This document shows positions 17-62,687 of a stretch of 64,000 nucleotides of DNA, in pieces (position 1 is the first letter of the stretch; the number at the start of each line of letters is the position of its first letter). The notes under the pieces were generated by a model, which had not been told where the DNA came from, did no database searches, and was given only the letters and a program-made list of their open reading frames with translations. Origin of the DNA: an uncultured bacterium. Lineage in GTDB: Bacteria; Margulisbacteria; WOR-1; JAKLHX01. A program made the position numbers and the translations under genes. The DNA lies in NCBI GenBank assembly GCA_964597815.1, contig CAZQZN010000002.1, forward strand, positions 15,436 to 79,435, written 5' to 3'.

Positions 17-955
17 ATGCCTGTATTCGCAACAAACGCACTCCAAAAGAAAGAGAATTTTAATCCTCTGGAAAATATCATTGCTTTTTTTGGATTTGGC
101 GGAGAACATCAGTTAAAACTTTCTCATTTTGCAAAACGTACAGTGTCCCAATTCTTGAAGATGTATGACGGAACTGCCGCAATTAATGGGAGTTTTTTCT
201 TCGCTGATGGAACACCTGTTGGCACATTAATAATAAAAAGACAAATAATTTCCTCGCCTCTTTATAACAGAACTTCGTTAATTATCAATTCAGATGGTAG
301 TGCTTATATCGCACCTGTAAAAATGCGTGGTTACATAAAACTTAAAAACGGAGAAAAAATTGATATCGCTGGAATAAACCAACCCATAAAAAACAACATT
401 ATAATCTACACCCCAGATTATCAAAAAACAGGATATGATAAAAACTCAATAAATATAGTTGTCGAAAACCAAGTTGTCAAATCAATAAGTTATTCTGAAA
501 CTTCAATCCCTCAAAACGGATTTGTGATCTCTGCCCCACTAAGCAAAAAACAATTTTTAGAATCAAAAATTAAAATTTCAGATACAGTCCAATGGTATTT
601 TATGACAAATCCCCCCCTTTCCAATATGATGCATATAATCAGCGGCGGACCACGGCTCTTATATGATGGAAAGTCTTGTATCACAGCAAAGGAAGAAAAT
701 TTCAAATCTGATGTTGCAAAAAGCAGAGCAAACAGAACTGCTGTTGGAATTAAAAAAAACGGAGATGTTATTTTACTTACAGTGGAAAAAGCAACTTTGA
801 AAGAGTTGGCGCGCCTTTTGCTTAAAGTTGGTGCTTATAACGCAATGAATTTAGATGGAGGAGGTTCAAGCTCTATGGTTGTAAAAAACTCCAGAATTTT
901 TGGGGGCAACAGGCCAGTCAGCAATGCTTTGGTAATAAATCCAAAATCCTTTTAA
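17..955 (+). CDS. Phosphodiester glycosidase family (NAGPA/DUF2233-like) protein; frame is open to the window edge, so probably 5'-truncated
   Basis: AAINGSFF, ISGGPRLL, RTAVGI and AMNLDGGGSSSM motifs; no in-frame stop between position 2 and the ATG at 17. Confidence 0.8.
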   Translation: MPVFATNALQKKENFNPLENIIAFFGFGGEHQLKLSHFAKRTVSQFLKMYDGTAAINGSFFFADGTPVGTLIIKRQIISSPLYNRTSLIINSDGSAYIAPVKMRGYIKLKNGEKIDIAGINQPIKNNIIIYTPDYQKTGYDKNSINIVVENQVVKSISYSETSIPQNGFVISAPLSKKQFLESKIKISDTVQWYFMTNPPLSNMMHIISGGPRLLYDGKSCITAKEENFKSDVAKSRANRTAVGIKKNGDVILLTVEKATLKELARLLLKVGAYNAMNLDGGGSSSMVVKNSRIFGGNRPVSNALVINPKSF

Positions 956-6965: not shown

Positions 6966-8105
6966 TTATCTTGTGAAAATCAATGCTTTTGAAGTAAATG
7001 ACGGATCAGACACATCTCCTTTAAAAAGTTCAACTTTTATTTTTCTTGTATCTATCATTTTAACAATCAAAGTATAAAATATCGTAGGATCTATTGTGCG
7101 GCCAAAAAATTCTTGGCCATCTTCTGCCATTCGCAATTTATAAGTTGCTGTTCCAGACGTTGGCGTAACCGAAGTAAAATCAGGTCCACTTATCGGACAA
7201 GTCAATTTCCCATTTGCTTCTCCAATTGTTTGAATAAGAGTATTGCCAATACTAATCCTTCTATAATCTGGATCATACATATCAAAACAGAAAGAAAGCC
7301 AAGGGTTCCAAAAATCTTTGTTAACAGGATCTGATCCTTCAACAATCCAATTGCCTTGTATAGTTCCATCAACATCAAAATCAAATCGCCCACCCCTTGG
7401 ATCCTTAGTCCTTTTCACAAATTTGTATAAATAATCCTTTAAATCAGATCTAAAATAATCTAGCGGGAAAACAGAATAGATACTATAAGGGCCATACAAC
7501 GATTTGTCAATGTATTTAGACGGCAATGTTCTATCATACAAATACCATCCAAGACCAGCAATATCAATTCCTGTCTTTGCAATAACATCTCCTGCTTCAA
7601 TAGTAACATAGACAGAATTTTCTCCAACTACTAGAGGCGAAGAAAGTTTTGATAAAATTTTTGGATCAACATTAGATAAATGGTCAAAAATAGTAACAAA
7701 ATCATTTGTGTGATATATTGTAAAAGCATAATCTTCGCTTGAAAATCCTGCTGAGGTATTATTTGAAAGACGAATTTTTGTGATAACCCCCTTGGCCGGG
7801 GATCTTACATCTTGTGGCTCTGATGTCATCAAAAGCTGATTAAATTGAAAACCACCCGCTGATGTTGGAATCGGATGTTGCGGTGGCATAATATGCCCCA
7901 AAGGAGTAAATTCATCCCAATACTGCGTATCAATTGGAATTTCGGTAAACTCGACAGTTCCACTACCAAGCTCTGGATGTTCTTCCCAAATCCAAACATT
8001 TGTACCAGAGCCGTTTTGAGTTTGACCACATCCAAAATTAAAGAAAAAAGCACATCCTATAACTGTAATAAAAATTACCATAAGATAAAAAAAGTTTTTT
8101 TTCAT
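6966..8105 (-). CDS. Putative lipoprotein with M23-peptidase-like segment (likely start ATG 8105)
   Basis: Signal peptide ending FNFGC; VRSPAKGVI, IFDHL and EAGDVIAKTG resemble M23 barrel elements; SD AAGGGG upstream. Confidence 0.5.
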   Translation of the reverse strand: MKKNFFYLMVIFITVIGCAFFFNFGCGQTQNGSGTNVWIWEEHPELGSGTVEFTEIPIDTQYWDEFTPLGHIMPPQHPIPTSAGGFQFNQLLMTSEPQDVRSPAKGVITKIRLSNNTSAGFSSEDYAFTIYHTNDFVTIFDHLSNVDPKILSKLSSPLVVGENSVYVTIEAGDVIAKTGIDIAGLGWYLYDRTLPSKYIDKSLYGPYSIYSVFPLDYFRSDLKDYLYKFVKRTKDPRGGRFDFDVDGTIQGNWIVEGSDPVNKDFWNPWLSFCFDMYDPDYRRISIGNTLIQTIGEANGKLTCPISGPDFTSVTPTSGTATYKLRMAEDGQEFFGRTIDPTIFYTLIVKMIDTRKIKVELFKGDVSDPSFTSKALIFTR

Positions 8106-8166
8106 TGATTTGCCCCTTTTTACGATTAAAATCAAATAGATTATAACATGCTAAAATAAAAAATGA

Positions 8167-25689: not shown

Positions 25690-26346
25690 TCATTTTAACA
25701 GATAAAAAGTAATGTCATAATCTCCCGGAAGATAGTTTGTTGAAATAGAAATGTTTGAGGTTATTGTTTTTAAATCATCAAAAATTTTCTGAGGATCATG
25801 GAAATAAAATCTCTTTAATTCGGTTTTTTGATGCCATTTAGGTATTAAAAGAAGAGCTTTTTCAGTTTGGAAATTGACGGACAACCCTTCATTTGCGCAA
25901 GCAAAAAGATCTTTTAGTTCAGAAGTATAATGCTTTGATATATCAAAATCTTCAGAAAATTTTAAGTTGTAAAGCCCTGAACAAACAATATAATCATATC
26001 TGTTCTGGAAAATATTTTCTTCCTTCAAAACAAAATTTGCATTTGGAAAGTTTTTTCTGGCTTCATTTAACAATTCTTTATTTATGTCTGTACCAATATA
26101 GTTTACTTGCCAAGAGCTCAAAAAACCTTCATCTTTGATAAACTTATATAAATGTCCTAAACCACAGCCAAAATCCAAGAGAGAAAAATCATTATATTTT
26201 TGCCCCATTGTACAAATTTTTAAAAGCTCAACAAATCTGCAATTTTGTGTAAATGGCGATTCCCAGCTTAAAGTCCTATGGCTAAATCCATATTTTTTGA
26301 GGCGTTGTGAAAAGTACTCTAATTGCTGTTGCTCATATTGATTCAT
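25690..26346 (-). CDS. Class I SAM-dependent methyltransferase
   Basis: LLDFGCGLG motif I; YDYIVCSG. Confidence 0.85.
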   Translation of the reverse strand: MNQYEQQQLEYFSQRLKKYGFSHRTLSWESPFTQNCRFVELLKICTMGQKYNDFSLLDFGCGLGHLYKFIKDEGFLSSWQVNYIGTDINKELLNEARKNFPNANFVLKEENIFQNRYDYIVCSGLYNLKFSEDFDISKHYTSELKDLFACANEGLSVNFQTEKALLLIPKWHQKTELKRFYFHDPQKIFDDLKTITSNISISTNYLPGDYDITFYLLK

Positions 26347-26536: not shown

Positions 26537-26960
26537 TGGTGGAGCTGGCGGGAGTTAAACCCGCGTCCGAAAGGCTCAACATCCGAAGATCTACAAGCTT
26601 AGCCCTTTATTGAAGTTTCGCCTGTAAATAAAGCCAAGGGCAAGGCCATTTACAAGGCTATCCTTTCATTTAGTTTCCTCTTCCGCCCTGAAAGGAAAAG
26701 AGCAAAAGAGTATCCGATATTATGACGCCTTTACTTAGGCCTATCGGAAAACCTAAGAGACGTGATTCTCAATACTTAGGAGAATCAATTAGGCAACTTG
26801 AGCAACTGGCGCTTTTACATTAAGAAAAGTCCAGTCAACTCTCGCTACCAAACTCTCAAATGTTTCAGCATTTGATTTTTGCCGCAAAGTTTAACGAGGC
26901 TCACGGCACCTCGGCTTGCACTCCGGACCTATCACCTCCCGTCGAATTCCTTACAGCCCC
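26537..26960 (-). ncRNA. ssrA: tmRNA (424 nt)
   Basis: 5' GGGGCUG pairs with 3' CAGCUCC-ACCA including the G3.U wobble; T arm GCGGG/CCCGC; pk1 stems CGAGG/CCUCG and GCCG/CGGC; internal tag ORF; smpB nearby. Confidence 0.96.
26789..26869 (-). other. tmRNA tag reading frame: (A)AETFESLVARVDWTFLNVKAPVAQVA*
   Basis: GCU resume codon follows AAAUCAAAU just after pk1; TAA stop is followed by hairpin TGATTCTC/GAGAATCA. Confidence 0.75.
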
Positions 26961-45560: not shown

Positions 45561-46670
45561 TCATTTTTTCGAATACCAATAAAACAAAGAATTTAATGAA
45601 TCAAAAAATAAGTCTTCAGAAGATAGTTTTTCAAGTGGGGATAAAACTGAAAGTATTTTTGATTCCGGCAATTTCCATCCCTTTTCAATTCTACTATCTG
45701 GATACACTACTGTTGCTGGTTTATCAAGTGCCTCAACTACATGGGCAGTGCCTGTTTCTTGTGTTAAAACATAATTACTTCTTTTGATTATCTGAGACAA
45801 TTCTCCCGGATTTGAATTTGGTAATCCAAATACTGGTGATTTTATTTTATAATTTTTTAAAATTTCCATAAATTTCTTGAAATAAACAGATTGATAACTT
45901 TCAACATAATTGATTCCAAAAATAAGGCTACCAAATCTGTTAGCTAATTCAAACTTTTTCCAAAATTCGCTTATCTTTTGTATTGTTTCAGCAAGGGTTT
46001 CCATTTTCCATTGGTTGGATTGTTGATTGGCACGCAAATTGATTGTAAACAAGAAGTCAGTTGGAAGCAGCCCTATATTTCTGAAAAGATTATCTACTTT
46101 TTCTTTGTCTTCACTGGCAAACCATGCCTCAGGACGAAAAGATTCATTTATTATCCAAAGTGGAGCGACATATCTCAAGATAATTTTTCCCATATATTCT
46201 TCTGGTGCAGCTATACTTTCAGGGGGACAAACATCATGAGAAAAATTTATATTTTCAGGAATTGGAGAAACAAAATCGTTCAAATAAGCTCTTAAAAATG
46301 ATTCTGATCCAATCCTTAAAGGAATTTCTATTTTCCCTTTTGAAACAAGATAATAATAAATACTTTCGTTTAAAGGCAAAGAAATTACAGTATCATAATT
46401 ACAAAATTTAATTAAAGGTGATATTTGGCGGATCCCATCTAAGTGGCTTGAATCATTTTCTGGAACTTCATGAACTTCTATATCATAAGGATTTCTTTTA
46501 TAAAAACCGGCATCATACTTATCAGTTAAGATTGAAATTTTGGCGTTTTGAAATTTATTGCGCAAAGATCTGAATAACGGCGTTGTCATCATTTTCATGC
46601 CCAACGACGGCATTTGGCTTATAACAAGTATCCTTGAAGGAATAGTAATTTTAAAGTTAGTATTTTGCAT
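45561..46670 (-). CDS. Glycosyltransferase family 9 (heptosyltransferase)-like protein, divergent
   Basis: RILVI...LG...TTPLFRSLR..F.NAKISIL; ETGTAH...ALDKP. Confidence 0.7.
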   Translation of the reverse strand: MQNTNFKITIPSRILVISQMPSLGMKMMTTPLFRSLRNKFQNAKISILTDKYDAGFYKRNPYDIEVHEVPENDSSHLDGIRQISPLIKFCNYDTVISLPLNESIYYYLVSKGKIEIPLRIGSESFLRAYLNDFVSPIPENINFSHDVCPPESIAAPEEYMGKIILRYVAPLWIINESFRPEAWFASEDKEKVDNLFRNIGLLPTDFLFTINLRANQQSNQWKMETLAETIQKISEFWKKFELANRFGSLIFGINYVESYQSVYFKKFMEILKNYKIKSPVFGLPNSNPGELSQIIKRSNYVLTQETGTAHVVEALDKPATVVYPDSRIEKGWKLPESKILSVLSPLEKLSSEDLFFDSLNSLFYWYSKK

Positions 46671-46719: not shown

Positions 46720-47436
46720 TTAATAAGCGTCTTCTAAATCAAAAACTTTATCAATATTTTCCTTTGTTAAAACTGCGGAGGCAAGCCCATCTAAAAAAAG
46801 CTGTCCGTTTTTTATAAAGATTGCCCTGTCAGCATTTTCTTTTAATCTATCCAAATCGTGCATGACAGAAATAATGAGTTTTTCCCCTTTGAGTTCATTA
46901 ATTAAACTTAATAAATGAATTTTGTTTTTGATATCCAAGTGTGCTGTTGGTTCGTCAAGCAACATAATTTTTGCTTGCTGAGCAAGTGCCCTTGCAAATA
47001 AAACTTTTTGGTATTCCCCACCACTCAAATCAGTGACAAATTTATCTTTTATCTTTGTTAAATCCATTCTTTCAAGTGATCTGTTGACTATATCTAAATG
47101 TTCTTTTTTAGTTGCTCTTATTGAAGCCCTTGCCATTTCAACAACTTCAAAAACTGTAAACCCATTTAATGGAGATGAGATTTGCGGGATGAACGATATT
47201 AAACCAGCCAACTCATTTGGAGAAATTTCTGAAATTTCTTTTCCATAAATCTTTATTGTTCCCTGTTTTTTTCTAAAAAATCCTAAGATTGCTCTAAGCA
47301 AAGTCGTTTTTCCGCTGCCATTTTCACCAATCAAAACAACAAACTGCGGCTTTTCAAAAGAAAGATTTATCCCTTCAAGAATATTCTTCCTGCCATAACC
47401 AACTATAAGGTCTTTTATTTCCAGTATTTTAGACAT
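46720..47436 (-). CDS. Cobalamin/Fe-siderophore ABC transporter ATPase (BtuD-like)
   Basis: GENGSGKTT, LSGGEYQK, LLDEPTAHLD. Confidence 0.9.
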   Translation of the reverse strand: MSKILEIKDLIVGYGRKNILEGINLSFEKPQFVVLIGENGSGKTTLLRAILGFFRKKQGTIKIYGKEISEISPNELAGLISFIPQISSPLNGFTVFEVVEMARASIRATKKEHLDIVNRSLERMDLTKIKDKFVTDLSGGEYQKVLFARALAQQAKIMLLDEPTAHLDIKNKIHLLSLINELKGEKLIISVMHDLDRLKENADRAIFIKNGQLFLDGLASAVLTKENIDKVFDLEDAY

Positions 47437-48382
47437 TCTTCCTTAACATTACCAAATAAAATAAAAATGGGGCGCCAACAAAAGCAACAGTTATGCCAAT
47501 AGGTATATCTATTGGCGAAAAAATTGATCTTGATATTAAATCTGAAAGAATTAAAAACGATGCCCCAAAAATTGAACTAAATGGAATAACATATTTGTTG
47601 TTCGCTCCAACCATAAATCTAATGATATGCGGCACTACTAATCCAACAAAACCGATTATCCCACAGAGCGAAACTGAAACGGCTGCTAAAAAAGAAGCAA
47701 GGCCAATAAAAATTAATCTGTTTTTTTCAACATCTATACCCAGAGATTTTGCTTCTTCATCTGATAATAGCAAAATATTTAATCTCTCTGACAAAAAGAT
47801 TGCAAAAATTATACCTAAAACAGCGCTGAAAAAAGCTATAAACAAAACGGTGTAATCAGCAAAAGAAAATGTACCAAACAGCCAAAAATATATAGAATTT
47901 AAGTTCTTGCCTAAAATTATTATCAAAACTAAAATTGAACCAAGCAAAGATGATAAGGCAACTCCCATTAAAACCAAAATTTCTGTTCTTGAGCCAAAAT
48001 GTGTTTTAGAAAAAAAATAAACGATGCTTGAGGAAAAAACCGCACCTAAAAATGACAAAAAGCAGACATATATTATTGGGAGCCCAAAAACCATTGCTAT
48101 TGCCGCTCCAATTGCACCACCAGCAGAAACAGAGAGAATGTACGGATCAGCAAGGGGATTCTTTAAGACACTTTGAAAAATCGCTCCTGATACTGAAAGC
48201 ATCGCTCCTGTTAGGCCGGCCAAAACAACTCTTGGAAATCTTAAAACAAAAAAAATAGTTTTATCAGAAGAACTCAAATTAAAGGGATTTATAATAACTG
48301 AACCAAAAAAAAAGCCCAAAAGTATCGAAGCCGCCAAGAACAGAAATGAAATAAAATATAGTAAAACAATTTTTTTTCTCAT
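47429..48382 (-). CDS. Cobalamin/Fe ABC transporter permease (BtuC/FecCD-like)
   Basis: LRFPRV, NPLADPYIL, EAKSLG, GIIGFVGLVVPH. Confidence 0.9.
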   Translation of the reverse strand: MRKKIVLLYFISFLFLAASILLGFFFGSVIINPFNLSSSDKTIFFVLRFPRVVLAGLTGAMLSVSGAIFQSVLKNPLADPYILSVSAGGAIGAAIAMVFGLPIIYVCFLSFLGAVFSSSIVYFFSKTHFGSRTEILVLMGVALSSLLGSILVLIIILGKNLNSIYFWLFGTFSFADYTVLFIAFFSAVLGIIFAIFLSERLNILLLSDEEAKSLGIDVEKNRLIFIGLASFLAAVSVSLCGIIGFVGLVVPHIIRFMVGANNKYVIPFSSIFGASFLILSDLISRSIFSPIDIPIGITVAFVGAPFLFYLVMLRKNV

Positions 48383-48386
48383 ATAA

Positions 48387-49232
48387 CTATTCCCTAATAA
48401 AATTAGCTATCAATTCAATTGATTTTAACGCTCTAATTGTTGGTCTTGTTATTAAATCAGCATCTATTAACAAAAAATTACCTTTTTTAATTGCTGATAA
48501 CTGTTTCCATTTTTCTTGTGAGATAATAGATTTTATCTGCGAATAAGATTTTCCTGAGAAAATAATATAATCTGGATCTTCCTTTAATAAAAATTCAAAA
48601 TCAACGGTTGGATAAGAGCTTCCTGCTTTGCTGCCAACATTTTGCCCTCCCGCTTTTTTTACAATATCTTCAACAATTGTGTCTTTGCCTCCCGTAATTA
48701 AAGGGTTAGCCCACAAAACAACAAATACTTTTGGAGAATTTTTTGCTTTTTTTATCCCAGAAATAGAGGAATAAATTTTTTTGTTTAATTCTGCAGCTCT
48801 TTTTTCTGTGCCAGTAACTTTGCCAAGCAGAAGTATAGAACTGGCAAGATCTTCAAAAGATTTTGGATTTATAACAAAAACTGGCAGTGATAATTTTCTC
48901 AACCGCTCAATTTGATATTTTTGAGTATCATAAAGCATCACAATAAGATCAGGATTTAACGAAATTATTTTTTCTACATCTAAATTTATATCTCCAATTT
49001 TTGGAAGTTTCTTCACTTGTTCAGGATAATCACATTTATTGCTTACAGCAATTATTTTTTTAGCAAGCCCAAGTTCAAACAAAATTTCAGTGTTGCTTGG
49101 CATTGTTGATATTATTCTTTTTGCAGGAGAAACAAAAGTAAATTTATATCCAGTTTCGTCTCTAATGGTTAAAGCATACAAAACGCTGACAAATAAGACA
49201 GCAATAAAAAAAATGGAAATTACTCTTTTCAT
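48387..49232 (-). CDS. Cobalamin-binding periplasmic protein (BtuF-like)
   Basis: RIISTMPSNTEILFELG, CDYP, EKIISLNPDL. Confidence 0.85.
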   Translation of the reverse strand: MKRVISIFFIAVLFVSVLYALTIRDETGYKFTFVSPAKRIISTMPSNTEILFELGLAKKIIAVSNKCDYPEQVKKLPKIGDINLDVEKIISLNPDLIVMLYDTQKYQIERLRKLSLPVFVINPKSFEDLASSILLLGKVTGTEKRAAELNKKIYSSISGIKKAKNSPKVFVVLWANPLITGGKDTIVEDIVKKAGGQNVGSKAGSSYPTVDFEFLLKEDPDYIIFSGKSYSQIKSIISQEKWKQLSAIKKGNFLLIDADLITRPTIRALKSIELIANFIRE

Positions 49233-49239
49233 CACTACT

Positions 49240-51549
49240 CTAAAACTGAGGATATTCCGGTTTTGAACCAACATCTATTATACCCATTTCAATAAGATCA
49301 TTTAATGTTTTTAATATTTTGCGCGGTTTGTTGTCTCCTTCCGGAACAGAAACTATCCCTGCTTCAGTCATTTCATCCATCAATCGTGCCGCTCTGTTAT
49401 ATCCAATTCTCATTCTTCTTTGAAGGTGCGAAGTCGAGGCCTGTCCGCTTTCAATAATAATTCTTGCAGCTTCAGCAAAAAGTTCGTCTCTTTGGTTAGC
49501 TTGATTTTGCCCTTGTAACTGTTTGTCAGACGAGACATATTTTAGGTTCAAAATCTCCTCCGAATATTCTGGCGATGCTTGCTCCTTAATAAAATCAACA
49601 ATCCTTTCAATTTCTTCATCGCTGACAAAAGACCCTTGTACTCTTATTGGTTTCATAGAACCAATTGGAGAATATAACATATCACCTCTGCCGAGCAATT
49701 TTTCCGCGCCGCTCATATCAAGAATAACTCTTGAATCTATTTGAGTGGCAACAGCAAACGAAATTCTGCTTGGAATATTAGCTTTTATAAGCCCAGTTAT
49801 AACATCAACAGAAGGCCGTTGAGTGGCAACAACAAGATGTATCCCTGTAGCGCGCGCCATTTGAGCAATCCGGCAAATAGTTGTTTCAACTTCAGCAGCA
49901 GCAACCATCATAAGATCTGCAAGCTCATCTATAATCACAACAATATAAGGCAGCGGTTCTGGTGCGAATATATCGGGATCCTTTTTTTTCTGTTCTAGAA
50001 GAGATTCTGCCTTTTTATTGAAAGATTGTATATTTCTAACTCCGAAGTTAAAAAACTCTTTATATCTCCTCTCCATTTCTTTTATAACCCAATCTTTCAA
50101 TGTTACAGCGGCTTTTCTGGGATCAGTTACAACAGGAGCCATCAAATGTGGAATATCGCTGTATGTAGCCAGTTCCACCATTTTGGGATCAATCATAATA
50201 AACTTGACTTCATCAGGACGAGCTCTTAAAAGTATGCTAATTATCAAAGAATTAATTGCAACACTTTTGCCAGAACCCGTGGTCCCCGCAATAAGCAGAT
50301 GAGGCATTTTTGATAAATCTCCAAAAATTGAGGCTCCCGCAATATCTTTCCCTATGCCAATGAAAAGTTTTGAAGGATTTTCCAAAAAATCTTGAGTCCT
50401 TGCGATTTCTCCCAGTTTTACAGGGGTAACAGTTGGATTTGGTACTTCAATTCCTACAACTGTTTTGCCAAAAATAGGGGCTTCAATCCTTACACCACCA
50501 GAAGCAAGATTTAGAGCAATATCATCGGCGAGATTAGCAATTTTGCTCACTTTAACGCCAGCTTCGGGTTGAACTTCAAATCTTGTAACAGCAGGCCCTA
50601 TGCTTATATTTACCACTTGAGCTGCTACCCCAAAACTCTTTAAAACTCTTTCAAGATCTTCTTTTCTTTTTTCTGTAAGCTCCTTAAGTTTTTGCGCTCT
50701 TTGCTTTTCTTTCTCGTTTAAAGTATCAAGCAAATTAAGCGGAGGAAGTTTGTATGTGTGACGAATATATTTTTTTGCTTGTTTTTCTCCCGTTGAATCT
50801 ATTTCTAAATTTTCCTTTTCAACCAAAGAAGAAGTGGTGTCAATTACAGTAGTTTTTTCTTCGGCAAAAGATTCTTTCGGCCCCAATTCTTTTAATACTT
50901 CAAGTTGAGCCGGTATTGAGCTAGAATCTTTTGAATAATCCTCCTGATCAAAAGGAAAACTTTCAATTTTACTCTTTTTTGTGCCATTTTGTTTTTTGCC
51001 TTCCTTTTTGTTAAAAGGCATAAAATTTTCCAGAGAAGCCAAAAAGATGTCAAAGTCTGAAATATTGAATATCATTATAAGAGAAATTAAAAATAGCGCG
51101 GACAAAAAAATATTTGTTCCAATAGGGCCAAAGATTTTCTGCAAAGCAGAATTTACGACAAAGCCAATTATTCCTCCAGCACCCTTCATCCATTGATTTT
51201 GGACAGACTCAAAATATCGTGGAAAAAAAATTTGTGAAACGGTAATAAACGACAGAAAAAAAACCAAAAAACCAAAGAATCTAGATTTTAACAGTCTTGG
51301 ATCTTGCTTTGTAAGTAAAATCGCTCCAAAAAAAGACAGCAGAATAGGAAGTAAAAAAACTCCAAAACCAAAAAGCCTTTCCAACCCCATTTTGACAATG
51401 TAAAAACCAAACCAGCCAGTTGGACCGGTTGAAACAGGAGAAGATATTTCGCAGAAAATAATGTATATTGCAAGCGCTATTAATAAAACGCCAGAAGCAA
51501 CATGGCTTTGGCCATTTGCTATATCACTTTCGGATTTTTTCGGTGCCAA
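49240..51549 (-). CDS. ftsK: DNA translocase FtsK (TTG start)
   Basis: N-terminal TM helices; GPAVTRFE, PHLLIAGTTGSGKS, IDELADLM, gamma domain IGYNRAAR. Confidence 0.97.
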   Translation of the reverse strand: MAPKKSESDIANGQSHVASGVLLIALAIYIIFCEISSPVSTGPTGWFGFYIVKMGLERLFGFGVFLLPILLSFFGAILLTKQDPRLLKSRFFGFLVFFLSFITVSQIFFPRYFESVQNQWMKGAGGIIGFVVNSALQKIFGPIGTNIFLSALFLISLIMIFNISDFDIFLASLENFMPFNKKEGKKQNGTKKSKIESFPFDQEDYSKDSSSIPAQLEVLKELGPKESFAEEKTTVIDTTSSLVEKENLEIDSTGEKQAKKYIRHTYKLPPLNLLDTLNEKEKQRAQKLKELTEKRKEDLERVLKSFGVAAQVVNISIGPAVTRFEVQPEAGVKVSKIANLADDIALNLASGGVRIEAPIFGKTVVGIEVPNPTVTPVKLGEIARTQDFLENPSKLFIGIGKDIAGASIFGDLSKMPHLLIAGTTGSGKSVAINSLIISILLRARPDEVKFIMIDPKMVELATYSDIPHLMAPVVTDPRKAAVTLKDWVIKEMERRYKEFFNFGVRNIQSFNKKAESLLEQKKKDPDIFAPEPLPYIVVIIDELADLMMVAAAEVETTICRIAQMARATGIHLVVATQRPSVDVITGLIKANIPSRISFAVATQIDSRVILDMSGAEKLLGRGDMLYSPIGSMKPIRVQGSFVSDEEIERIVDFIKEQASPEYSEEILNLKYVSSDKQLQGQNQANQRDELFAEAARIIIESGQASTSHLQRRMRIGYNRAARLMDEMTEAGIVSVPEGDNKPRKILKTLNDLIEMGIIDVGSKPEYPQF

Positions 51550-53816: not shown

Positions 53817-55739
53817 TTATAGATTCCAAACATATTTCATATATTCAGAGACCATTCTTTGAGTTAAAAAGTAAGGAGCAACATTTGATACACAGCTGAC
53901 CATCTTGTCTCCCCATAACGAGTTGCAACCATTTTTCAAAAGTTTGTTTTTTATGGAGTGATAATATAAGTCTTTAATTGAGTTTAAAGTTGCATACAAA
54001 GCATAAGCATCTGCTCTATAATTTCTATCTCCATTTTTTGCTTTCATAATGCCAAACGGCCACCCTACATCTCCAAAAGTAAGCATTTCAGGAACACATC
54101 CATCAACTGTTGTCGCAAGAGGAACAGCATTTAAAATCGCATCCATAGTCGAAGTTCCGGAAGCTTCTTCCCCCCATATAGGATTGTTTAGCCAAACATC
54201 TACTCCCGGAATCAATACTCTTGCCATATTTACATCATAATTTGGCAAAAACAAGATTTTTATTCTGTCACCGTATTTTTCGTTTATCAATTTTGCTGAT
54301 TGAAGAAGATTTTGTAAAATATACTTTCCTCCACCCGGTGAAGAATCTTTAGGGTGGGCTTTTCCCGCAAAAATAAACTGAACAGGTTTTTTGGGATCAA
54401 ATACATTTGCCAAAGCGTCAATATCATGAACAAGTAAATCATGCCGCTTATAACCAGCAACTCTTCTTGCAAAGCCAATAGTCAAAACATCCGGTTCCAA
54501 TTTCCTCAAAAATATTTCTGGATCAAGCCCAGCCTCTTCTAAATTATTCCTTTGTTTCTTGCAATACGATATTAAATCCTCTTTTGATTTTGAATGTGCC
54601 TCCCATAATGCTTTTCGAAATTCAGCATTGAAAGACAACTTTGAAAGAGAGGTAAGTGCTTTTGGATTTTCTCTCCAATCAGGGGCATATTTATCGTAAA
54701 CTTCTTGTATGTGTTTTGACGCCCAATCTGGATGAACAGCATTTGTAATTCCACCTTGTGAAATAATTCTTTCAGAATGTTGTGGAAAACTTTTTCTTAA
54801 AAGCTCTCCATTTAATTTTGAAACAGCGTTAATTTTCCCAGCAGAAAACATCGCCAATCCAGTCATATCAATATGAGAAGAATATACGGGCACTTCGTCA
54901 AATTTCTTTAATCTGCCATCAACAGGGCTTGCACCCAAAATCCCAATTAATCTCCTAAAATCTTGGTCGCGAACCATATCAGAAAAAATATCCGCACTAA
55001 ACACGTCTGAAGCAGCACCGACAAGAGTGTGTGATGTGTAAACGATCTTATTTCTAAGTTCTCTTAAAGCATTTTCATCAAGCTTTTCAGGGGTAATTCC
55101 CATTTCAGACAATATCTGAATCGCTCCCAAAGCAGGATGACAATCGTTAAAATGATAAAGATCAATTGGAATTCCAAGTTCCTTCAATGCTTTAACTCCA
55201 CCAATTCCTAAAATCATTTCCTGCCCCAATGTTGCAAATGGATCTTGGGAAGAGCCGGGATATAAAGTATCTGTGATTCTTTCAAAGCCTTCTACGCCAC
55301 AATCTTTTACGCTCATTAAAATGATTGGCAAAACACCGCCGTTTTTGCCTTTCAAAAGCTGACCATACAAAGACACTGGAATTTCTCTGCCTTGAATATT
55401 TACATTTATCGTTTTATCCAGCTTTGTAAGAAAAGGATTTTTATCTATTCCTGAATCAACATAATTTTCATGTTGAAAAAAGTTTGAATCAAACTTTTGA
55501 TGTTGCAAATATTTATGAACTATAGACACCCCAACAATTGGCAATGACTGATCAGCACATTGTTGAAGCCAATCGCTTGATAAAACACCAAGTCCTCCGC
55601 CTCCTGGTCTTTTGTCTGTTCCATATATTTCCGCAGTATGAAACGCAATTCTCCTTGGATATGAATACATTGATTTGATTGCGTTCATAAAAGCAGTTTT
55701 ATTAACTGGCGAAACATATCTAATAAATGAACTTGGCAT
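53817..55739 (-). CDS. Alpha-glucan phosphorylase (GT35)-like protein lacking the PLP-binding lysine
   Basis: GGLGVLSSD, HFNDCHP, YTSHT, ITNAVH, FARRVAGYKR, FAGKAHPKD, EASGTSTMD. Confidence 0.88.
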   Translation of the reverse strand: MPSSFIRYVSPVNKTAFMNAIKSMYSYPRRIAFHTAEIYGTDKRPGGGGLGVLSSDWLQQCADQSLPIVGVSIVHKYLQHQKFDSNFFQHENYVDSGIDKNPFLTKLDKTINVNIQGREIPVSLYGQLLKGKNGGVLPIILMSVKDCGVEGFERITDTLYPGSSQDPFATLGQEMILGIGGVKALKELGIPIDLYHFNDCHPALGAIQILSEMGITPEKLDENALRELRNKIVYTSHTLVGAASDVFSADIFSDMVRDQDFRRLIGILGASPVDGRLKKFDEVPVYSSHIDMTGLAMFSAGKINAVSKLNGELLRKSFPQHSERIISQGGITNAVHPDWASKHIQEVYDKYAPDWRENPKALTSLSKLSFNAEFRKALWEAHSKSKEDLISYCKKQRNNLEEAGLDPEIFLRKLEPDVLTIGFARRVAGYKRHDLLVHDIDALANVFDPKKPVQFIFAGKAHPKDSSPGGGKYILQNLLQSAKLINEKYGDRIKILFLPNYDVNMARVLIPGVDVWLNNPIWGEEASGTSTMDAILNAVPLATTVDGCVPEMLTFGDVGWPFGIMKAKNGDRNYRADAYALYATLNSIKDLYYHSIKNKLLKNGCNSLWGDKMVSCVSNVAPYFLTQRMVSEYMKYVWNL

Positions 55740-59939: not shown

Positions 59940-60551
59940 TTAGGACTTTAATTGGAATCTGATCGGAATTGTAAACCAACATTCAGTCAATTGATTTGAC
60001 GAACTTGCCGGCTCAAAAACCCATTGCGAAACAGCATTTAAAGCTGATTTATCAAGCAATTCAAAACCGGAGCTTTGCTCAATTTTTGTTTGTCCAACTT
60101 TGCCATTTTTTTGTATCATAACGCTTACTATGACTGTGCCTTGTTCTGAGTTTTCAACACTTTTAACTGGATAATCAGGCATTGTTTTGTAAATAATTCT
60201 TGGAGCGACAATACCTTTCTGTGTGGCTGTTTTTGGGACAGTTGTAATATTTCTAACATCTGCAATTTTATTTTGTGCGGTTTTTGCTATATCTGACTGT
60301 TTGGCTATGCTAACAAAATCTCCAACTTTTACAGCATCTTTTTTTATTTCAGTGTCCGCAACAGGAATAACATCTAACTGCCCAACAATTGTAAACTCCG
60401 GAACCAAACTCGCGGCTTTTATGAATTTGTGTTCAATCTTTACAGAAAACCATGCCATAGCAATTAAAATTGCCATAGCAAAAATAACTGGAATATCTAT
60501 CGATTCAAAAATTGAAGTATTAGAATTTGAAAATTTGTATTTGTATTTCAT
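59940..60551 (-). CDS. tonB: TonB energy transducer
   Basis: Single TM helix; C-terminal P.YP...EQGTV, SSGFELLDKSAL.AV..W.FEP. Confidence 0.85.
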   Translation of the reverse strand: MKYKYKFSNSNTSIFESIDIPVIFAMAILIAMAWFSVKIEHKFIKAASLVPEFTIVGQLDVIPVADTEIKKDAVKVGDFVSIAKQSDIAKTAQNKIADVRNITTVPKTATQKGIVAPRIIYKTMPDYPVKSVENSEQGTVIVSVMIQKNGKVGQTKIEQSSGFELLDKSALNAVSQWVFEPASSSNQLTECWFTIPIRFQLKS

Positions 60552-60596: not shown

Positions 60597-62438
60597 TCAA
60601 TAACTTAACCTAATTTCGAATCTTCTTCCCGGCATAGGATAAGGCCTTTCTTTCCAGTCAACTTGGCTATTACCAACCGACTCATAATATGTTTCGTTAA
60701 ACAAGTTCATAACACTTGCTGAAAATGTGATGTCATAAATTTTTTTCAAAAGTGTTAAATCAACAACTCTATAAGCTGGAAGCGTTTTTAAATTATTGGA
60801 ATCTGTAAATACCTGAGATACATCTTTTGATCTTAAATTTATAGTCAAACCATCGGCAAATAATTCTATCCCAGAATTTATTTTATAAGCCGGGCTATAT
60901 GGAATTGTTTTTTGAGAAGAGAGATCTACTACGCTTTCATTGTTGTAATCAACAAAAACCCTGACACCTTTTATTAATTCTTTTTTTATTCCAAAAGTCA
61001 CTCCTTCAATTTTTGCAGAATCAATATTTGTCGTTTGCCAAACAAATGGAGAAGTTTCCTTCCATGTGATCATATCTGAAATATTGTTCTGATAATATCC
61101 AAGCTCAATATTAGATCCATATAAGTCTTTTTCATAATATACGCCGAAAGAACTCCCCTTTTCCGGTTTTAAATTTGGATTGCCAAACATCCCCCAAGAT
61201 GGCTCATCCCAATAAAGTTCGTTGATTGTTGGCGCTCTAAATGATTTTGAAAACGAATATTTTAACCTGCCAAATTCTCCTAAATTCGCGCGCATTAAAA
61301 CAGCTGGAGTTAATTGACTGCCCCAAACCTTGCTATCGTCATACCTTAATCCAAAATTTGCGGCAAGAGGCAGGTCAATATTACTGGATAAGTTTAGAAA
61401 GATTGAAGAATTGTCTATTGAATGTTCTCCTGTTTTGGCGCTTTTGCCATCACTTCTCTTAAAATCACATCCATAAATTAGATTTGAGTTAGAAAAAGAT
61501 ATTGATTTTTGAGCATTCAACGTTAAAATTCTGCCAAAGTAATCTTCATCTGTGAAAGATCCACTAAACACATCAAAGAAATGGACATTTTCGTTTTGTA
61601 CATTTTCACTAAAACTGATTTTATCTAATAACCCAAAATAATCGCCTTTTATATCTATCAATAAATTTCCATAAAAATCTTTTTGTCTATCGTTTGGTGT
61701 TGAAGCCGCCCAAGAATCGTTATCAGAAGGAGGAACGCCGGGATTGCCTCTGTCAGAATTTGCCAATCTATACTTTATCATTAAATTTCCTGCGTATTCA
61801 GCAAACAAAGAAAGCGAATTATTTTTGTAGTCGCTGTTCTGTCTAAATCCATCTGTTCTTAAATTATTGAAATCAAATCCAAAAGAGAGATTTGCCAAAC
61901 TACTTGCCGCTGAAACTGAATAAGAAGACTGATTATAAGAACCATATGAAATTGCAGCGTTGATTTTGTGGCTTTTGTCATCTTTTGTTACAATATTTAT
62001 TGCACCACCAACTGCGTCCGCACCAAATAAATATGACAAAGAATCCTCAACTATTTCAATGCGTTCAACATCTGAAACTTGTATATCATTCAAATCAAAC
62101 ATTCCAAGCAAAGGTGAATTTATCTTTTGCCCATCAAGCAAAAGCAAAACCTGTGAAGCAGTTGCGCTTTTCATTCTAGTAGAACTTATAGACCCCAAAT
62201 ACCCTGTGCTTTTAACTTTTATGGTTGAAACAAGATCTATCGCTTCTGATACTGTTTTTACCCCAGATTTTTTTATTTCGTCCTGAGTAATCACTCTAAC
62301 TTTCTGAAAAGTTTTTGATACTGGAAGCAAAGATTTTGTAGCAACAACAATAAGCTCTTCACCATAAAAAACAGGAACATCAGCAAACAACTTGGAAAAG
62401 AGGAAAAGAAACAAAAAAAGGGGCAGGAACTTTTTCAT
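60597..62438 (-). CDS. btuB: TonB-dependent receptor, probably cobalamin (BtuB-like)
   Basis: Plug motifs (LLLDGQ, VERIEIV, GADAVGGAINI), beta-barrel, aromatic C-terminus; preceded by a B12 riboswitch. Confidence 0.85.
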   Translation of the reverse strand: MKKFLPLFLFLFLFSKLFADVPVFYGEELIVVATKSLLPVSKTFQKVRVITQDEIKKSGVKTVSEAIDLVSTIKVKSTGYLGSISSTRMKSATASQVLLLLDGQKINSPLLGMFDLNDIQVSDVERIEIVEDSLSYLFGADAVGGAINIVTKDDKSHKINAAISYGSYNQSSYSVSAASSLANLSFGFDFNNLRTDGFRQNSDYKNNSLSLFAEYAGNLMIKYRLANSDRGNPGVPPSDNDSWAASTPNDRQKDFYGNLLIDIKGDYFGLLDKISFSENVQNENVHFFDVFSGSFTDEDYFGRILTLNAQKSISFSNSNLIYGCDFKRSDGKSAKTGEHSIDNSSIFLNLSSNIDLPLAANFGLRYDDSKVWGSQLTPAVLMRANLGEFGRLKYSFSKSFRAPTINELYWDEPSWGMFGNPNLKPEKGSSFGVYYEKDLYGSNIELGYYQNNISDMITWKETSPFVWQTTNIDSAKIEGVTFGIKKELIKGVRVFVDYNNESVVDLSSQKTIPYSPAYKINSGIELFADGLTINLRSKDVSQVFTDSNNLKTLPAYRVVDLTLLKKIYDITFSASVMNLFNETYYESVGNSQVDWKERPYPMPGRRFEIRLSY

Positions 62439-62485
62439 GGCTCACTCCTTCTTCCCATTCCGCGAGGATGGGAGTGTATAATCTA

Positions 62486-62647
62486 TGCAGGCAAGGTCTT
62501 CTGACTTACGGGTCATCCTCCCCCGCGTCTTCCCGCTTTATTAAAAGCAGTGACTTTTTGCGGGTTTGTCGCCGATTACAGCGCCGGGAGCGTCTCCGAA
62601 TTCTCTTTTTAAGTTAAAAAGAGTCACGGAAGTTCCCTTTTCCTGCA
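62486..62647 (-). promoter_or_regulatory. Cobalamin riboswitch
   Basis: P1 UGCAGG/CCUGCA, AGGGAA, CCC..GCUGUAA, CACUG..GGGAAG, B12 box AAGUCAGAAGACC; downstream CACUCC can pair with SD GGAGUG. Confidence 0.92.
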
Positions 62648-62657
62648 CGCAAAGTTG

Positions 62658-62687
62658 ATGATATCACAAGAAAATTTTTTTTGTCAA
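62658..62687 (-). promoter_or_regulatory. sigma70-type promoter for riboswitch-btuB
   Basis: TTGACA-18 nt-TATCAT with extended TG. Confidence 0.65.

What the first reader, a model, noticed from the sequence alone, without database searches (positions are those of the whole stretch)
53817..55739. Glucan phosphorylase homologue with the PLP Schiff-base lysine replaced by aspartate
Seen (checked on the DNA near 54120-54180): GAA GCT TCC GGA ACT TCG ACT ATG GAT encodes EASGTSTMD, against the canonical EASGTSGMK. Residues matching the sugar and phosphate sites remain (YTSHT, ARR..GYKR, E of EASG) and the 640-aa ORF is intact. Known: GT35 phosphorylases bind PLP covalently through this Lys (Lys680 in rabbit muscle) and need it for catalysis; the related GT-B glycogen synthases use nucleotide sugars without PLP. 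Inference: a PLP-independent GT35 enzyme, possibly a nucleotide-sugar glucosyltransferase, or a glucan-binding pseudoenzyme. I know of no characterised example.
Basis: partly seen in the sequence, partly recalled or inferred. Interest (0 to 1): 0.78.

Follow-up and report, generated by a model that had tools for sequence, protein, structure and literature searches.

The report
Glucan phosphorylase lacking its PLP lysine
An intact, strongly conserved glycogen/maltodextrin-phosphorylase gene of an uncultured Margulisbacteria bacterium has aspartate where classical enzymes have the lysine that holds their vitamin-B6 cofactor; the change is fixed in a small lineage, so it is real, but it adds an undescribed acidic variant to the recently found cofactor-free phosphorylases and is not unprecedented.

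Summary
ORF 53817-55739 (-) encodes an intact 640-aa GT35 protein of the TIGR02094 type ("GP1"). Its cofactor motif reads EASGTSTMD, so Asp533 sits where S. copri GP has Lys609, E. coli MalP Lys646 and E. coli GlgP Lys662.

It is neither an error nor decay. All roughly 20 members of a monophyletic clade (39-70% identity, several independent assemblies) carry Asp; one carries Asn. About 370 ordinary relatives carry Lys. Synonymous sites are saturated and dN/dS is about 0.06.

The sugar and phosphate residues are all kept, and so are the residues I recall as lining the PLP pocket. No new conserved Lys appears. The clade is rare and the named members are Margulisbacteria. Its neighbours are housekeeping genes, with no glycogen genes in the 64 kb.

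Methanococcus maripaludis GP (Lys->Thr) is active without PLP, and Lys->Thr/Gly/Ala lineages have been reported. Lys->Asp has not.

Most likely this is a PLP-Schiff-base-free alpha-glucan phosphorylase. A non-covalent B6 cofactor, an NDP-glucose donor (E-x7-D resembles the E-x7-E motif) or a pseudoenzyme are not excluded. I rate it a new variant of a known kind, of moderate interest.

The parts
53817..55739 (-). Intact 640-aa GT35 (TIGR02094 / 'GP1'-type) alpha-glucan phosphorylase homologue
   Evidence: ORF. PF00343 scores 118 bits and TIGR02094 scores 349 bits against a cutoff of 191.7. AF2 model: pLDDT 93.1, pTM 0.92. Foldseek best matches are E. coli and S. copri glycogen phosphorylases, TMq 0.79-0.80.
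54141..54167 (-). Cofactor motif EASGTSTMD (E525-D533), corresponding to EASGTxMK of PLP-dependent enzymes
   Evidence: alignments
54141..54143 (-). GAT codon for Asp533, at the position of the PLP Schiff-base Lys (rabbit K680, MalP K646, GlgP K662, ScGP K609)
   Evidence: Asp in 18 and Asn in 1 of 19 clade proteins, against Lys in 252+118 ordinary relatives.
55587..55604 (-). Gly-rich loop GGGGLG (46-51), the GGLGxL substrate/phosphate loop. The Tyr-Ser that precedes GGLG in ordinary TIGR02094 proteins is Gly-Gly here.
55026..55040 (-). YTSHT (234-238). His237 corresponds to ScGP H316 and rabbit H377, a glucose contact.
54723..54746 (-). TNAVHPDW (332-339). Asn333 corresponds to rabbit N484 and Trp339 to rabbit W491. 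Gly->Ala at 334 is specific to the clade.
54444..54470 (-). ARRVAGYKR (424-432). R425/R426/K431 correspond to ScGP R507/R508/K513 (rabbit K568/R569/K574), the phosphate-binding basic residues. Y430 corresponds to Y573.
54222..54242 (-). NYDVNMA (500-506). Y501, V503 and A506 correspond to rabbit Y648, V650 and A653, which line the pyridoxal ring (from memory). They are invariant in the clade.

Best explanation
The gene encodes a functional alpha-1,4-glucan phosphorylase of the short TIGR02094/'GP1' type that cannot attach PLP covalently. Shown: the fold, every known glucosyl- and phosphate-binding residue and the subsite that normally holds the PLP 5'-phosphate are conserved, and the gene is under strong purifying selection in a small lineage whose named members are Margulisbacteria. 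Inferred: it still carries out glucosyl transfer between a glucan and phosphate, as the characterised Lys->Thr enzyme of Methanococcus maripaludis does. In that model a non-covalently held phosphate-type anion occupies the conserved 5'-phosphate subsite (R425, K431, backbone of T529/S530, G48/G49). That anion would act as the acid/base normally provided by the PLP phosphate. Asp533 (Asn in one member) would be a lineage-specific replacement lining the vacated cofactor pocket. Its acidic character suggests it binds something there, but its precise role is unknown.
For: Family and fold. Asp533 lies opposite the PLP-Lys of three enzymes in which that Lys is experimentally assigned. Of 46 positions identical in E. 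coli MalP, E. coli GlgP and at least 90% of TIGR02094 representatives, 35 are kept in at least 9 of 10 clade members. These include H237, N333, W339, R426, Y430, K431, K460, Y501, E525, G528 and T529. The clade is monophyletic in 100 of 100 bootstraps, and Asp/Asn is fixed across 39-70% identity. Synonymous sites are saturated, dN/dS is about 0.06 for the closest pair, and the Asp codon is identical in independent assemblies. Precedent: MmGP (Lys->Thr) phosphorolyses glycogen with no PLP detectable by four methods, and a two-phosphate mechanism was proposed for it. Lys-less GP1 lineages have also been reported.
Against: There are no biochemical data for any clade member. [quoted passage not shown] Here the ring-lining residues I recall for rabbit GP (Y501, W339, V503, A506) are unchanged, and several clade-specific changes make residues smaller (Y46G, S47G, W548C, W549V). 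That fits a pocket that still holds a ligand better than an empty or collapsed one. A conserved acidic residue is not needed by the two-phosphate model. No glycogen-metabolism gene lies in the 64 kb window or beside the orthologues, so a role in glycogen turnover is not supported by context. No sequence with Thr/Ser at this position appears among the closest relatives, so the analogy with MmGP concerns mechanism only.
Confidence: 0.42

Rival explanations
1. The enzyme is still B6-dependent but holds the cofactor non-covalently. PLP, or better pyridoxamine-5'-phosphate or pyridoxine-5'-phosphate, sits in the unchanged pocket. Asp533 (Asn in one member) would salt-bridge or hydrogen-bond to the 4' substituent instead of forming an aldimine. 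The cofactor 5'-phosphate would then act as in classical phosphorylases.
For: The residues recalled as lining the PLP ring and phosphate subsites are invariant in the clade (Y501, V503, A506, W339, G48/G49, T529/S530, R425, K431). No bulky plug is present, unlike the K->G singleton P0176, which has Tyr at the A506 position. It is established that the Schiff base is an anchor and not a catalytic group in phosphorylase (discussed). This is the smallest evolutionary step: Lys AAR -> Asn AAY -> Asp GAY, with Asn still present in P0007. A Lys->His PLP enzyme that binds the cofactor non-covalently is cited.
Against: MmGP, the only Lys-less GT35 tested, contains no PLP. The pocket geometry could not be inspected because no model coordinates were available. 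My list of PLP-contact residues comes from memory of rabbit GP.
Confidence: 0.2
2. The protein is a nucleotide-sugar-dependent alpha-glucan glucosyltransferase. The former PLP site binds the nucleoside monophosphate part of an NDP-glucose donor. Asp533 would play the part of the second acidic residue of the E-x7-E motif of GT3/GT4 retaining GT-B enzymes, which binds the nucleotide ribose (that function is from my own knowledge).
For: The motifs line up: WaaG E281-x7-E289, GlgA E377-x7-Y385, MalP E638-x7-K646, query E525-x7-D533. Five of 10 clade members give weak PF00534 (Glycos_transf_1) matches across residues about 414-559 (best 25.9 bits, E 8e-6). Only 2 of 40 ordinary relatives do so (best E 0.071). 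A review proposes that PLP replaced a nucleoside monophosphate in a proto-GT35 NDP-sugar enzyme (PMC11046441). ADP-Glc and UDP-Glc inhibit PLP-free MmGP at 0.045-0.19 mM, and saturating Pi raises those IC50 values about tenfold.
Against: All PF00534 matches are below the gathering score, and the window protein itself gives none. The pocket residues are those of PLP-binding relatives, with no sign of a new base-binding pocket. Both major GT35 groups have Lys, so Asp is most simply a secondary change and not an ancestral state (the deep position has only 55/100 support). No NDP-sugar or glycogen-synthesis genes are nearby.
Confidence: 0.14
3. The protein is a non-catalytic GT35 pseudoenzyme, a glucan- or sugar-phosphate-binding protein with a regulatory or scaffolding role.
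For: The residue regarded as indispensable in classical GT35 is lost. Four other near-universal positions are also changed (H310N, G334A, R170T, G78L). The genomic context is housekeeping and not glycogen-related.
Against: Pseudoenzymes usually let catalytic residues drift. Here all sugar and phosphate contacts are invariant over divergence down to 39% identity, and dN/dS is about 0.06. MmGP shows that the Lys is dispensable for catalysis.
Confidence: 0.18
4. The substitution is a sequencing or assembly error, or recent gene decay in this one genome.
For: None, beyond the prior rarity of Lys loss. Isolated Lys-less singletons do occur among ordinary relatives (P0176 K->G, P0208 K->C).
Against: The same substitution is found in about 20 proteins from NCBI, ENA, JGI and Logan assemblies. 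Two nucleotide changes are required. Flanking codons differ synonymously. The ORFs are intact and under purifying selection.
Confidence: 0.01

Closest known systems
Methanococcus maripaludis glycogen phosphorylase (MmGP), a PLP-independent GT35 (bioRxiv 10.1101/2024.09.29.615707; FEBS J 2025, doi 10.1111/febs.70182)
   Same: A short GT35 enzyme that lacks the N-terminal regulatory region. The Lys of EASGTxMK is replaced, while GGLGxL and the phosphate and sugar residues are conserved.
   Different: The replacement there is Thr (sometimes Ser), in Methanococcales archaea; here it is Asp (Asn once), in Margulisbacteria. The MmGP pocket is reported as filled by bulky residues such as Phe26; here the ring-lining residues are unchanged. 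No sequence with Thr/Ser at this position is among the 150 best-scoring representatives, so the loss is probably independent. I could not obtain the MmGP sequence for a direct comparison.
Lys-less members of 'GP1 clade VIII' (Lys -> Thr/Gly/Ala) in Flavobacteria, Chitinophagia, Cytophagia, Akkermansia and Gastranaerophilales (Nat Commun 2026, PMC13324651)
   Same: GP1/TIGR02094-type phosphorylases with a conserved Glc-1-P site and a lost Schiff-base Lys.
   Different: Those proteins are about 550 aa with uncharged small residues, and Asp is not listed among the replacements. The clade here is about 635-683 aa, has its own insertions, and is separated from every other sequence by a score gap of 708-1071 bits against 369 bits or less.
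Segatella copri glycogen phosphorylase ScGP (PDB 9L6I), PLP-dependent 'clade 2' GP
   Same: It is the best match among solved structures by sequence (E 4e-56) and the joint-best by fold (TMq 0.80). H316, R507, R508 and K513 correspond to H237, R425, R426 and K431.
   Different: ScGP has Lys609-PLP, an extra N-terminal helical domain and a C-terminal beta-sheet domain, forms pentamers, and is only 25% identical.
Canonical glycogen/maltodextrin phosphorylases (rabbit GP, E. coli GlgP and MalP; TIGR02093)
   Same: GT-B fold and the same catalytic residues. Several clade states equal the canonical ones and differ from the TIGR02094 ones (NDxHP, HTL, DG..PEM).
   Different: The TIGR02093 score is 105 bits against a cutoff of 553. 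There is no regulatory N-terminus, 280s loop or tower helices, and Lys680 is replaced.
Retaining GT-B nucleotide-sugar glucosyltransferases with the E-x7-E motif (GT4 WaaG; GT3 and GT5 glycogen synthases)
   Same: The C-terminal Rossmann domain motif E-x2-G-x4-[acidic]-x4-G/A lines up. Weak PF00534 similarity is enriched in the clade.
   Different: All scores are below threshold. Overall the protein is unambiguously GT35, and no nucleotide-binding features could be shown.

Membership tests
GT35 / Pfam PF00343 carbohydrate phosphorylase | Profile HMM score above the gathering threshold | tested here: met
   118.4 bits against 27. All 9 clade members match.
TIGR02094 'alpha-glucan family phosphorylase' (GP1) | NCBIfam score above the curated cutoff | tested here: met
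   349.3 bits against 191.7, over residues 48-638.
GT35 | GT-B two-Rossmann fold superposable on solved phosphorylases | tested here: met
   AF2 pLDDT 93.1 and pTM 0.92. Foldseek E about 1e-36 and TMq 0.79-0.80 to E. coli GlgP and S. copri GP.
GT35 | Glucosyl- and phosphate-binding residues (GGLGxL loop; H377, N484, Y573, K574, R569, E672, S674, G675, T676 in rabbit numbering) | tested here: met
   All are present and invariant in the clade. ScGP H316/R507/R508/K513 are matched.
Classical (PLP-dependent) GT35 phosphorylase | Lys of EASGTxMK forming the Schiff base with PLP | tested here: not met
   Asp533. There is no other clade-invariant new Lys.
Canonical glycogen/starch phosphorylase TIGR02093 | NCBIfam score above the cutoff | tested here: not met
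   105.4 bits against 552.9.
PLP-independent GT35 phosphorylase (MmGP type) | Schiff-base Lys replaced while the substrate site is conserved | tested here: met
   definition taken.
PLP-independent GT35 phosphorylase (MmGP type) | Protein contains no PLP yet phosphorolyses glycogen | not testable with these tools
   Needs purified protein: absorbance, fluorescence, cyanohydrin, mass spectrometry and activity assays, as.
PLP-independent GT35 phosphorylase (MmGP type) | Pyridoxal pocket occupied by bulky side chains (Phe26 in MmGP) | tested here: inconclusive
   Pocket-lining positions are unchanged and several clade-specific changes are to smaller residues. However, neither model coordinates nor the MmGP sequence were available.
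PLP-independent GT35 phosphorylase (MmGP type) | Common descent with the Methanococcales Lys->Thr enzymes | tested here: inconclusive
   No sequence with Thr/Ser at this position is among the 150 best representatives or the other fetched relatives. This argues for an independent origin, but no tree including MmGP was built.
GT4/GT5-type NDP-sugar transferases (PF00534 Glycos_transf_1) | Profile HMM score above the gathering threshold | tested here: not met
   The window protein gives no hit. The best clade member scores 25.9 bits against 26.4.
GT3/GT4 retaining GT-B enzymes | E-x7-E motif, whose second acidic residue binds the nucleotide ribose | tested here: inconclusive
   E525-x7-D533 lines up with WaaG E281-x7-E289. 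Asp is not Glu, one member has Asn, and ligand binding was not tested.

The most novel reading that the evidence does not exclude
The Lys->Asp clade has turned the PLP pocket into, or kept it as, a nucleoside-monophosphate site, and uses an NDP-glucose donor. It would then be a living example of the 'proto-GT35 NDP-sugar-dependent enzyme' that has been postulated to link glycogen synthases and phosphorylases (PMC11046441). Asp533 would act as the ribose-binding second acidic residue of an E-x7-E-like motif.
Probability: 0.13. Interest if true: 0.85.

Novelty: new variant of a known kind. Interest (0 to 1): 0.5.

Why it matters
Until 2024-2025 covalent PLP was regarded as universal and indispensable in GT35 phosphorylases. 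One Lys->Thr archaeal enzyme has since been shown to work without it, and its mechanism is still only modelled. An independent bacterial lineage that fixes a charged Asp at the same position, while keeping the rest of the cofactor pocket, provides a second natural experiment. It can show whether a free anion, a non-covalent B6 vitamer or a nucleotide takes the place of PLP. It also makes testable the proposal that PLP once replaced a nucleotide in an ancestral glycosyltransferase. On the practical side, public annotation calls these proteins 'alpha-glucan family phosphorylase' or 'starch phosphorylase', which hides the difference.

Tried and rejected
Error or pseudogene: rejected.

An alternative Schiff-base Lys: rejected. 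The only clade-enriched Lys positions (278, 302, 612) are not invariant, and P0010 lacks them.

Glycogen operon context: none was found in the 64 kb window or around the orthologues.

Profile comparison of the clade with E. coli GlgA alone: the alignment was unusable (hhalign probability 0.7%).

Walking beyond the window, or identifying the source assembly, through the look-up of encoding contigs: the window's own proteins are not on record.

Papers not held: EMBO J 2004 glycogen synthase paper and the FEBS J version of the MmGP paper. I used the bioRxiv version of the latter instead.

Checking whether the K->G singleton P0176 represents a Lys-less clade: it does not, since all 118 newly fetched relatives have Lys.

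Inspecting the cofactor pocket in 3D: not possible, because the AF2 model's coordinates are not exposed.

Literature search for EASGT + aspartate + phosphorylase, and for E-x7-E + glycogen phosphorylase + ribose: no papers.
Full report
**1. The observation**

The minus-strand ORF 53817..55739 is intact: 640 aa with an ATG start. An RBS-like AAGGGAAAG lies just upstream. Bases 54167-54141 read GAA GCT TCC GGA ACT TCG ACT ATG GAT, which is E525-A-S-G-T-S-T-M-D533.

**2. What the protein is**

It matches Pfam PF00343 at 118 bits. It matches NCBIfam TIGR02094 'alpha-glucan family phosphorylase' at 349 bits against a cutoff of 191.7. It falls far below the cutoff of the canonical family TIGR02093 (105 against 553).

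The best solved relatives by sequence are the Segatella copri glycogen phosphorylase entries 9L6I and 20YR, at E 4e-56. An AlphaFold2 model built from an 87-sequence alignment is confident, with pLDDT 93.1 and pTM 0.92. Foldseek returns only glycogen, starch and maltodextrin phosphorylases at the top, with TMq 0.75-0.80.

**3. Asp533 really is at the Schiff-base position**

In the HMMER alignment to 9L6I, counting chain residues places Lys609 (…EASGTSGEK…) opposite Asp533. The structure paper states that Lys609 harbours PLP and that H316, R507, R508 and K513 contact substrate or product (PMC12912991). In the same alignment those four residues pair with H237, R425, R426 and K431.

A MAFFT alignment with E. 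coli MalP and GlgP, taken from NC_000913.3, puts Asp533 opposite MalP K646 and GlgP K662. These are the residues named as the PLP attachment sites in PMC11046441 and PMC13324651.

**4. It is neither an error nor a decaying gene**

The word-indexed search of 5.8 billion proteins found a tight group, P0002-P0010, at 70-39% identity and 1070-495 bits. The next hits are ordinary TIGR02094 proteins at 286 bits or less.

- In alignment A1 every member of the group has EASGTSTMD, except P0007 with EASGTSTMN. Every outgroup sequence has EASGTSGMK.
- A motif scan of the first 276 fetched proteins gave 252 Lys, 18 Asp and 1 Asn (all in the clade), plus two isolated exceptions, P0176 (Gly) and P0208 (Cys).
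- A further 118 relatives of P0176 all have Lys. Sporadic singletons therefore exist, but only the Asp group is a fixed lineage.
- The clade is monophyletic in 100 of 100 NJ bootstraps.
- At the DNA level the Asp codon is GAT in the window, L001, L002/L007/L008 and L003/L005. The Asn codon in L006 is AAC. Neighbouring codons differ synonymously between assemblies. Lys (AAR) to Asp (GAY) needs two changes, and Asn (AAY) is the one-step intermediate.
- Synonymous sites are saturated in most pairs. For L001 against L003 dN/dS is about 0.06, and for L003 against L006 about 0.18.

**5. How rare it is and who carries it**

An exhaustive HMMER search with the clade profile covered 1.84 billion representatives clustered at 50% identity. 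Only three clade representatives were found (1071, 994 and 708 bits), and the next score is 369 bits.

One scan of GTDB species representatives found two loci: an uncultured MAG and a Candidatus Margulisiibacteriota MAG. The JGI metagenome scan added only a few more.

The window's GatB is closest to proteins named Candidatus Margulisiibacteriota (75% identity), followed by Saganbacteria/WOR-1. The window therefore comes from a Margulisbacteria-phylum genome of about 34% G+C with uniform composition.

**6. Genomic context**

The gene sits in a long run of same-strand housekeeping genes: queA, tgt, a PHP-like gene, an MBL-fold hydrolase, then the GT35 gene, then secD, secF, ftsK and a B12/iron-type ABC importer. 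The close orthologue P0003 shares this synteny. P0007 and P0010 lie in other contexts that are also unrelated to glycogen.

Pfam annotation of the remaining ORFs of at least 164 aa found no glgA, glgB, glgC, glgX or malQ and no second phosphorylase in the 64 kb. By contrast P0130, the closest Lys-bearing relative, lies next to TIM, PFK and H+-PPase genes. Whether the genome has glycogen metabolism elsewhere could not be determined.

**7. What else changed**

I took the 46 positions that are identical in E. coli MalP, E. coli GlgP and at least 90% of 50 TIGR02094 representatives. Of these, 35 are retained in at least 9 of 10 clade members. The consistent changes are K533D, H310N (rabbit H459), G334A (G485), R170T (R292) and G78L.

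Against the nearest family, further clade-specific states include Y33F, S47G, G531T, W548C, W549V and P523G. Several states revert to those of canonical enzymes: NDxHP, HTL and DG..PEM. Y46G is visible in the residue table.

The residues I recall as lining the PLP ring and phosphate in rabbit GP are Y648, V650, A653, W491, G134/G135 and T676/G677. This list is from memory and was not checked on coordinates. Their equivalents Y501, V503, A506, W339, G48/G49 and T529/S530 are invariant in the clade. The K->G singleton P0176 has Tyr at the A506 position, as if its pocket were plugged, whereas the Asp clade does not. No new clade-invariant Lys exists.

**8. Comparison with what is known**

Gonzalez-Ordenes et al. 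(bioRxiv 10.1101/2024.09.29.615707; FEBS J 2025) showed the following:

- Methanococcales GPs carry Thr (sometimes Ser) in place of the Lys.
- Recombinant M. maripaludis GP phosphorolyses glycogen.
- PLP is absent by absorbance, fluorescence, cyanohydrin assay and mass spectrometry.
- They propose that a second free phosphate occupies the PLP 5'-phosphate site, and that the pyridoxal site is filled by bulky residues such as Phe26.
- ADP-Glc, UDP-Glc, ADP and PPi inhibit the enzyme; saturating Pi raises the ADP-Glc and UDP-Glc IC50 values about tenfold and abolishes the ADP effect.

A 2026 phylogeny (PMC13324651) reports Lys->Thr/Gly/Ala in 'GP1 clade VIII' from Bacteroidota, Akkermansia and Gastranaerophilales. 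Neither source mentions Asp. A full-text search for EASGT + aspartate + phosphorylase returned nothing. No sequence with Thr/Ser at this position is among the closest relatives of the Asp clade, so the Asp lineage looks like an independent loss.

Its deep position is not resolved: it is sister to all other TIGR02094 proteins in only 55 of 100 bootstraps. Both large GT35 groups have Lys, so Asp is most simply a derived state.

**9. Mechanism**

Shown: the fold, the substrate and phosphate site, purifying selection and the absence of the anchoring Lys.

Inferred as most likely (about 0.4): an active alpha-glucan phosphorylase working without Schiff-base PLP, as MmGP does. A non-covalent phosphate-type ligand would occupy the conserved 5'-phosphate subsite.

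The unchanged pocket and the conserved acidic residue keep two alternatives open:
- a non-covalently held B6 vitamer phosphate, where the amine of PMP would pair naturally with Asp (about 0.2);
- an NDP-glucose donor (about 0.14).

For the NDP-glucose reading, E525-x7-D533 lines up with the E-x7-E motif of WaaG and with E377 of GlgA. That the second Glu binds the nucleotide ribose is my own knowledge. Five of 10 clade members give sub-threshold PF00534 matches across this region, against 2 of 40 ordinary relatives. A review has proposed that PLP replaced a nucleoside monophosphate in a proto-GT35. A pseudoenzyme (about 0.18) fits poorly with the invariance of all catalytic residues, but it cannot be excluded without an assay.

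**10. Verdict**

The finding is real and clade-conserved. It is outdated on novelty. This is a new, acidic, bacterial variant of the recently recognised Lys-less GT35 phosphorylases. Interest is moderate at 0.5. It would be high only if the pocket proves to bind a nucleotide.

Noticed in passing
window 26537-26960 (-): Full-length tmRNA gene (Rfam RF00023, 176 bits).
   Followed up: no
window 62474-62664 (-), with 60597-62438 (-), 59940-60551 (-) and 46720-49274 (-): A cobalamin riboswitch (RF00174, 95 bits) lies directly upstream of a TonB-dependent receptor and a TonB gene. A BtuFCD-like ABC importer (Peripla_BP_2, FecCD, ABC_tran) lies 11 kb away. Together these look like a B12-scavenging system in a diderm Margulisbacteria genome.
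   Followed up: partly
L006 6604-6630 (protein P0007): One clade member has Asn (AAC) instead of Asp (GAT) at the Lys position. Asn is the single-step codon intermediate between Lys (AAR) and Asp (GAY), so it may be a relic of the path taken or a back-step.
   Followed up: partly
proteins P0176 and P0208 (ordinary TIGR02094 relatives): These are isolated Lys->Gly and Lys->Cys replacements in otherwise ordinary phosphorylases. P0176 also has Tyr at the Ala506 (rabbit A653) pocket position. All 118 newly fetched relatives of P0176 keep Lys, so it is a singleton (a 3-kb Logan contig): either an error or a very recent loss.
   Followed up: yes
L014 5882-5908: A relative of 30% identity carries EASGTSTMK. 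The Thr at motif position 7, otherwise typical of the Asp clade, can therefore coexist with the Lys.
   Followed up: no
alignment A4 (ordinary TIGR02094 proteins) and proteins P0133-P0137, P0180, P0260: Six of 40 ordinary members give weak PF08323 (starch-synthase catalytic domain) matches. The representative search also shows phosphorylase domains embedded in proteins of about 1000, about 1400 and even 3489 aa, which look like unexplored fusions.
   Followed up: no
window 45561-46670 (-), 6966-8135 (-), 25690-26346 (-): Three sizeable ORFs (369, 389 and 218 aa) gave no Pfam match, the first at E <= 0.001 and the other two at E <= 1e-8.
   Followed up: no
window 17-955 (+): An NAGPA-type phosphodiester glycosidase domain protein sits at the window edge. 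It is the only other carbohydrate-related gene seen in the window.
   Followed up: no
window 53817-55739 (-), residues 41-50, 461-470 and 521-530: In the otherwise very confident AF2 model, the lowest pLDDT blocks near the active site are the GGGGLG loop (62), the clade-specific SSPGGGK insertion after AGKAHPKD (85) and the loop preceding EASGT (85). These are candidate ligand-gated loops.
   Followed up: no
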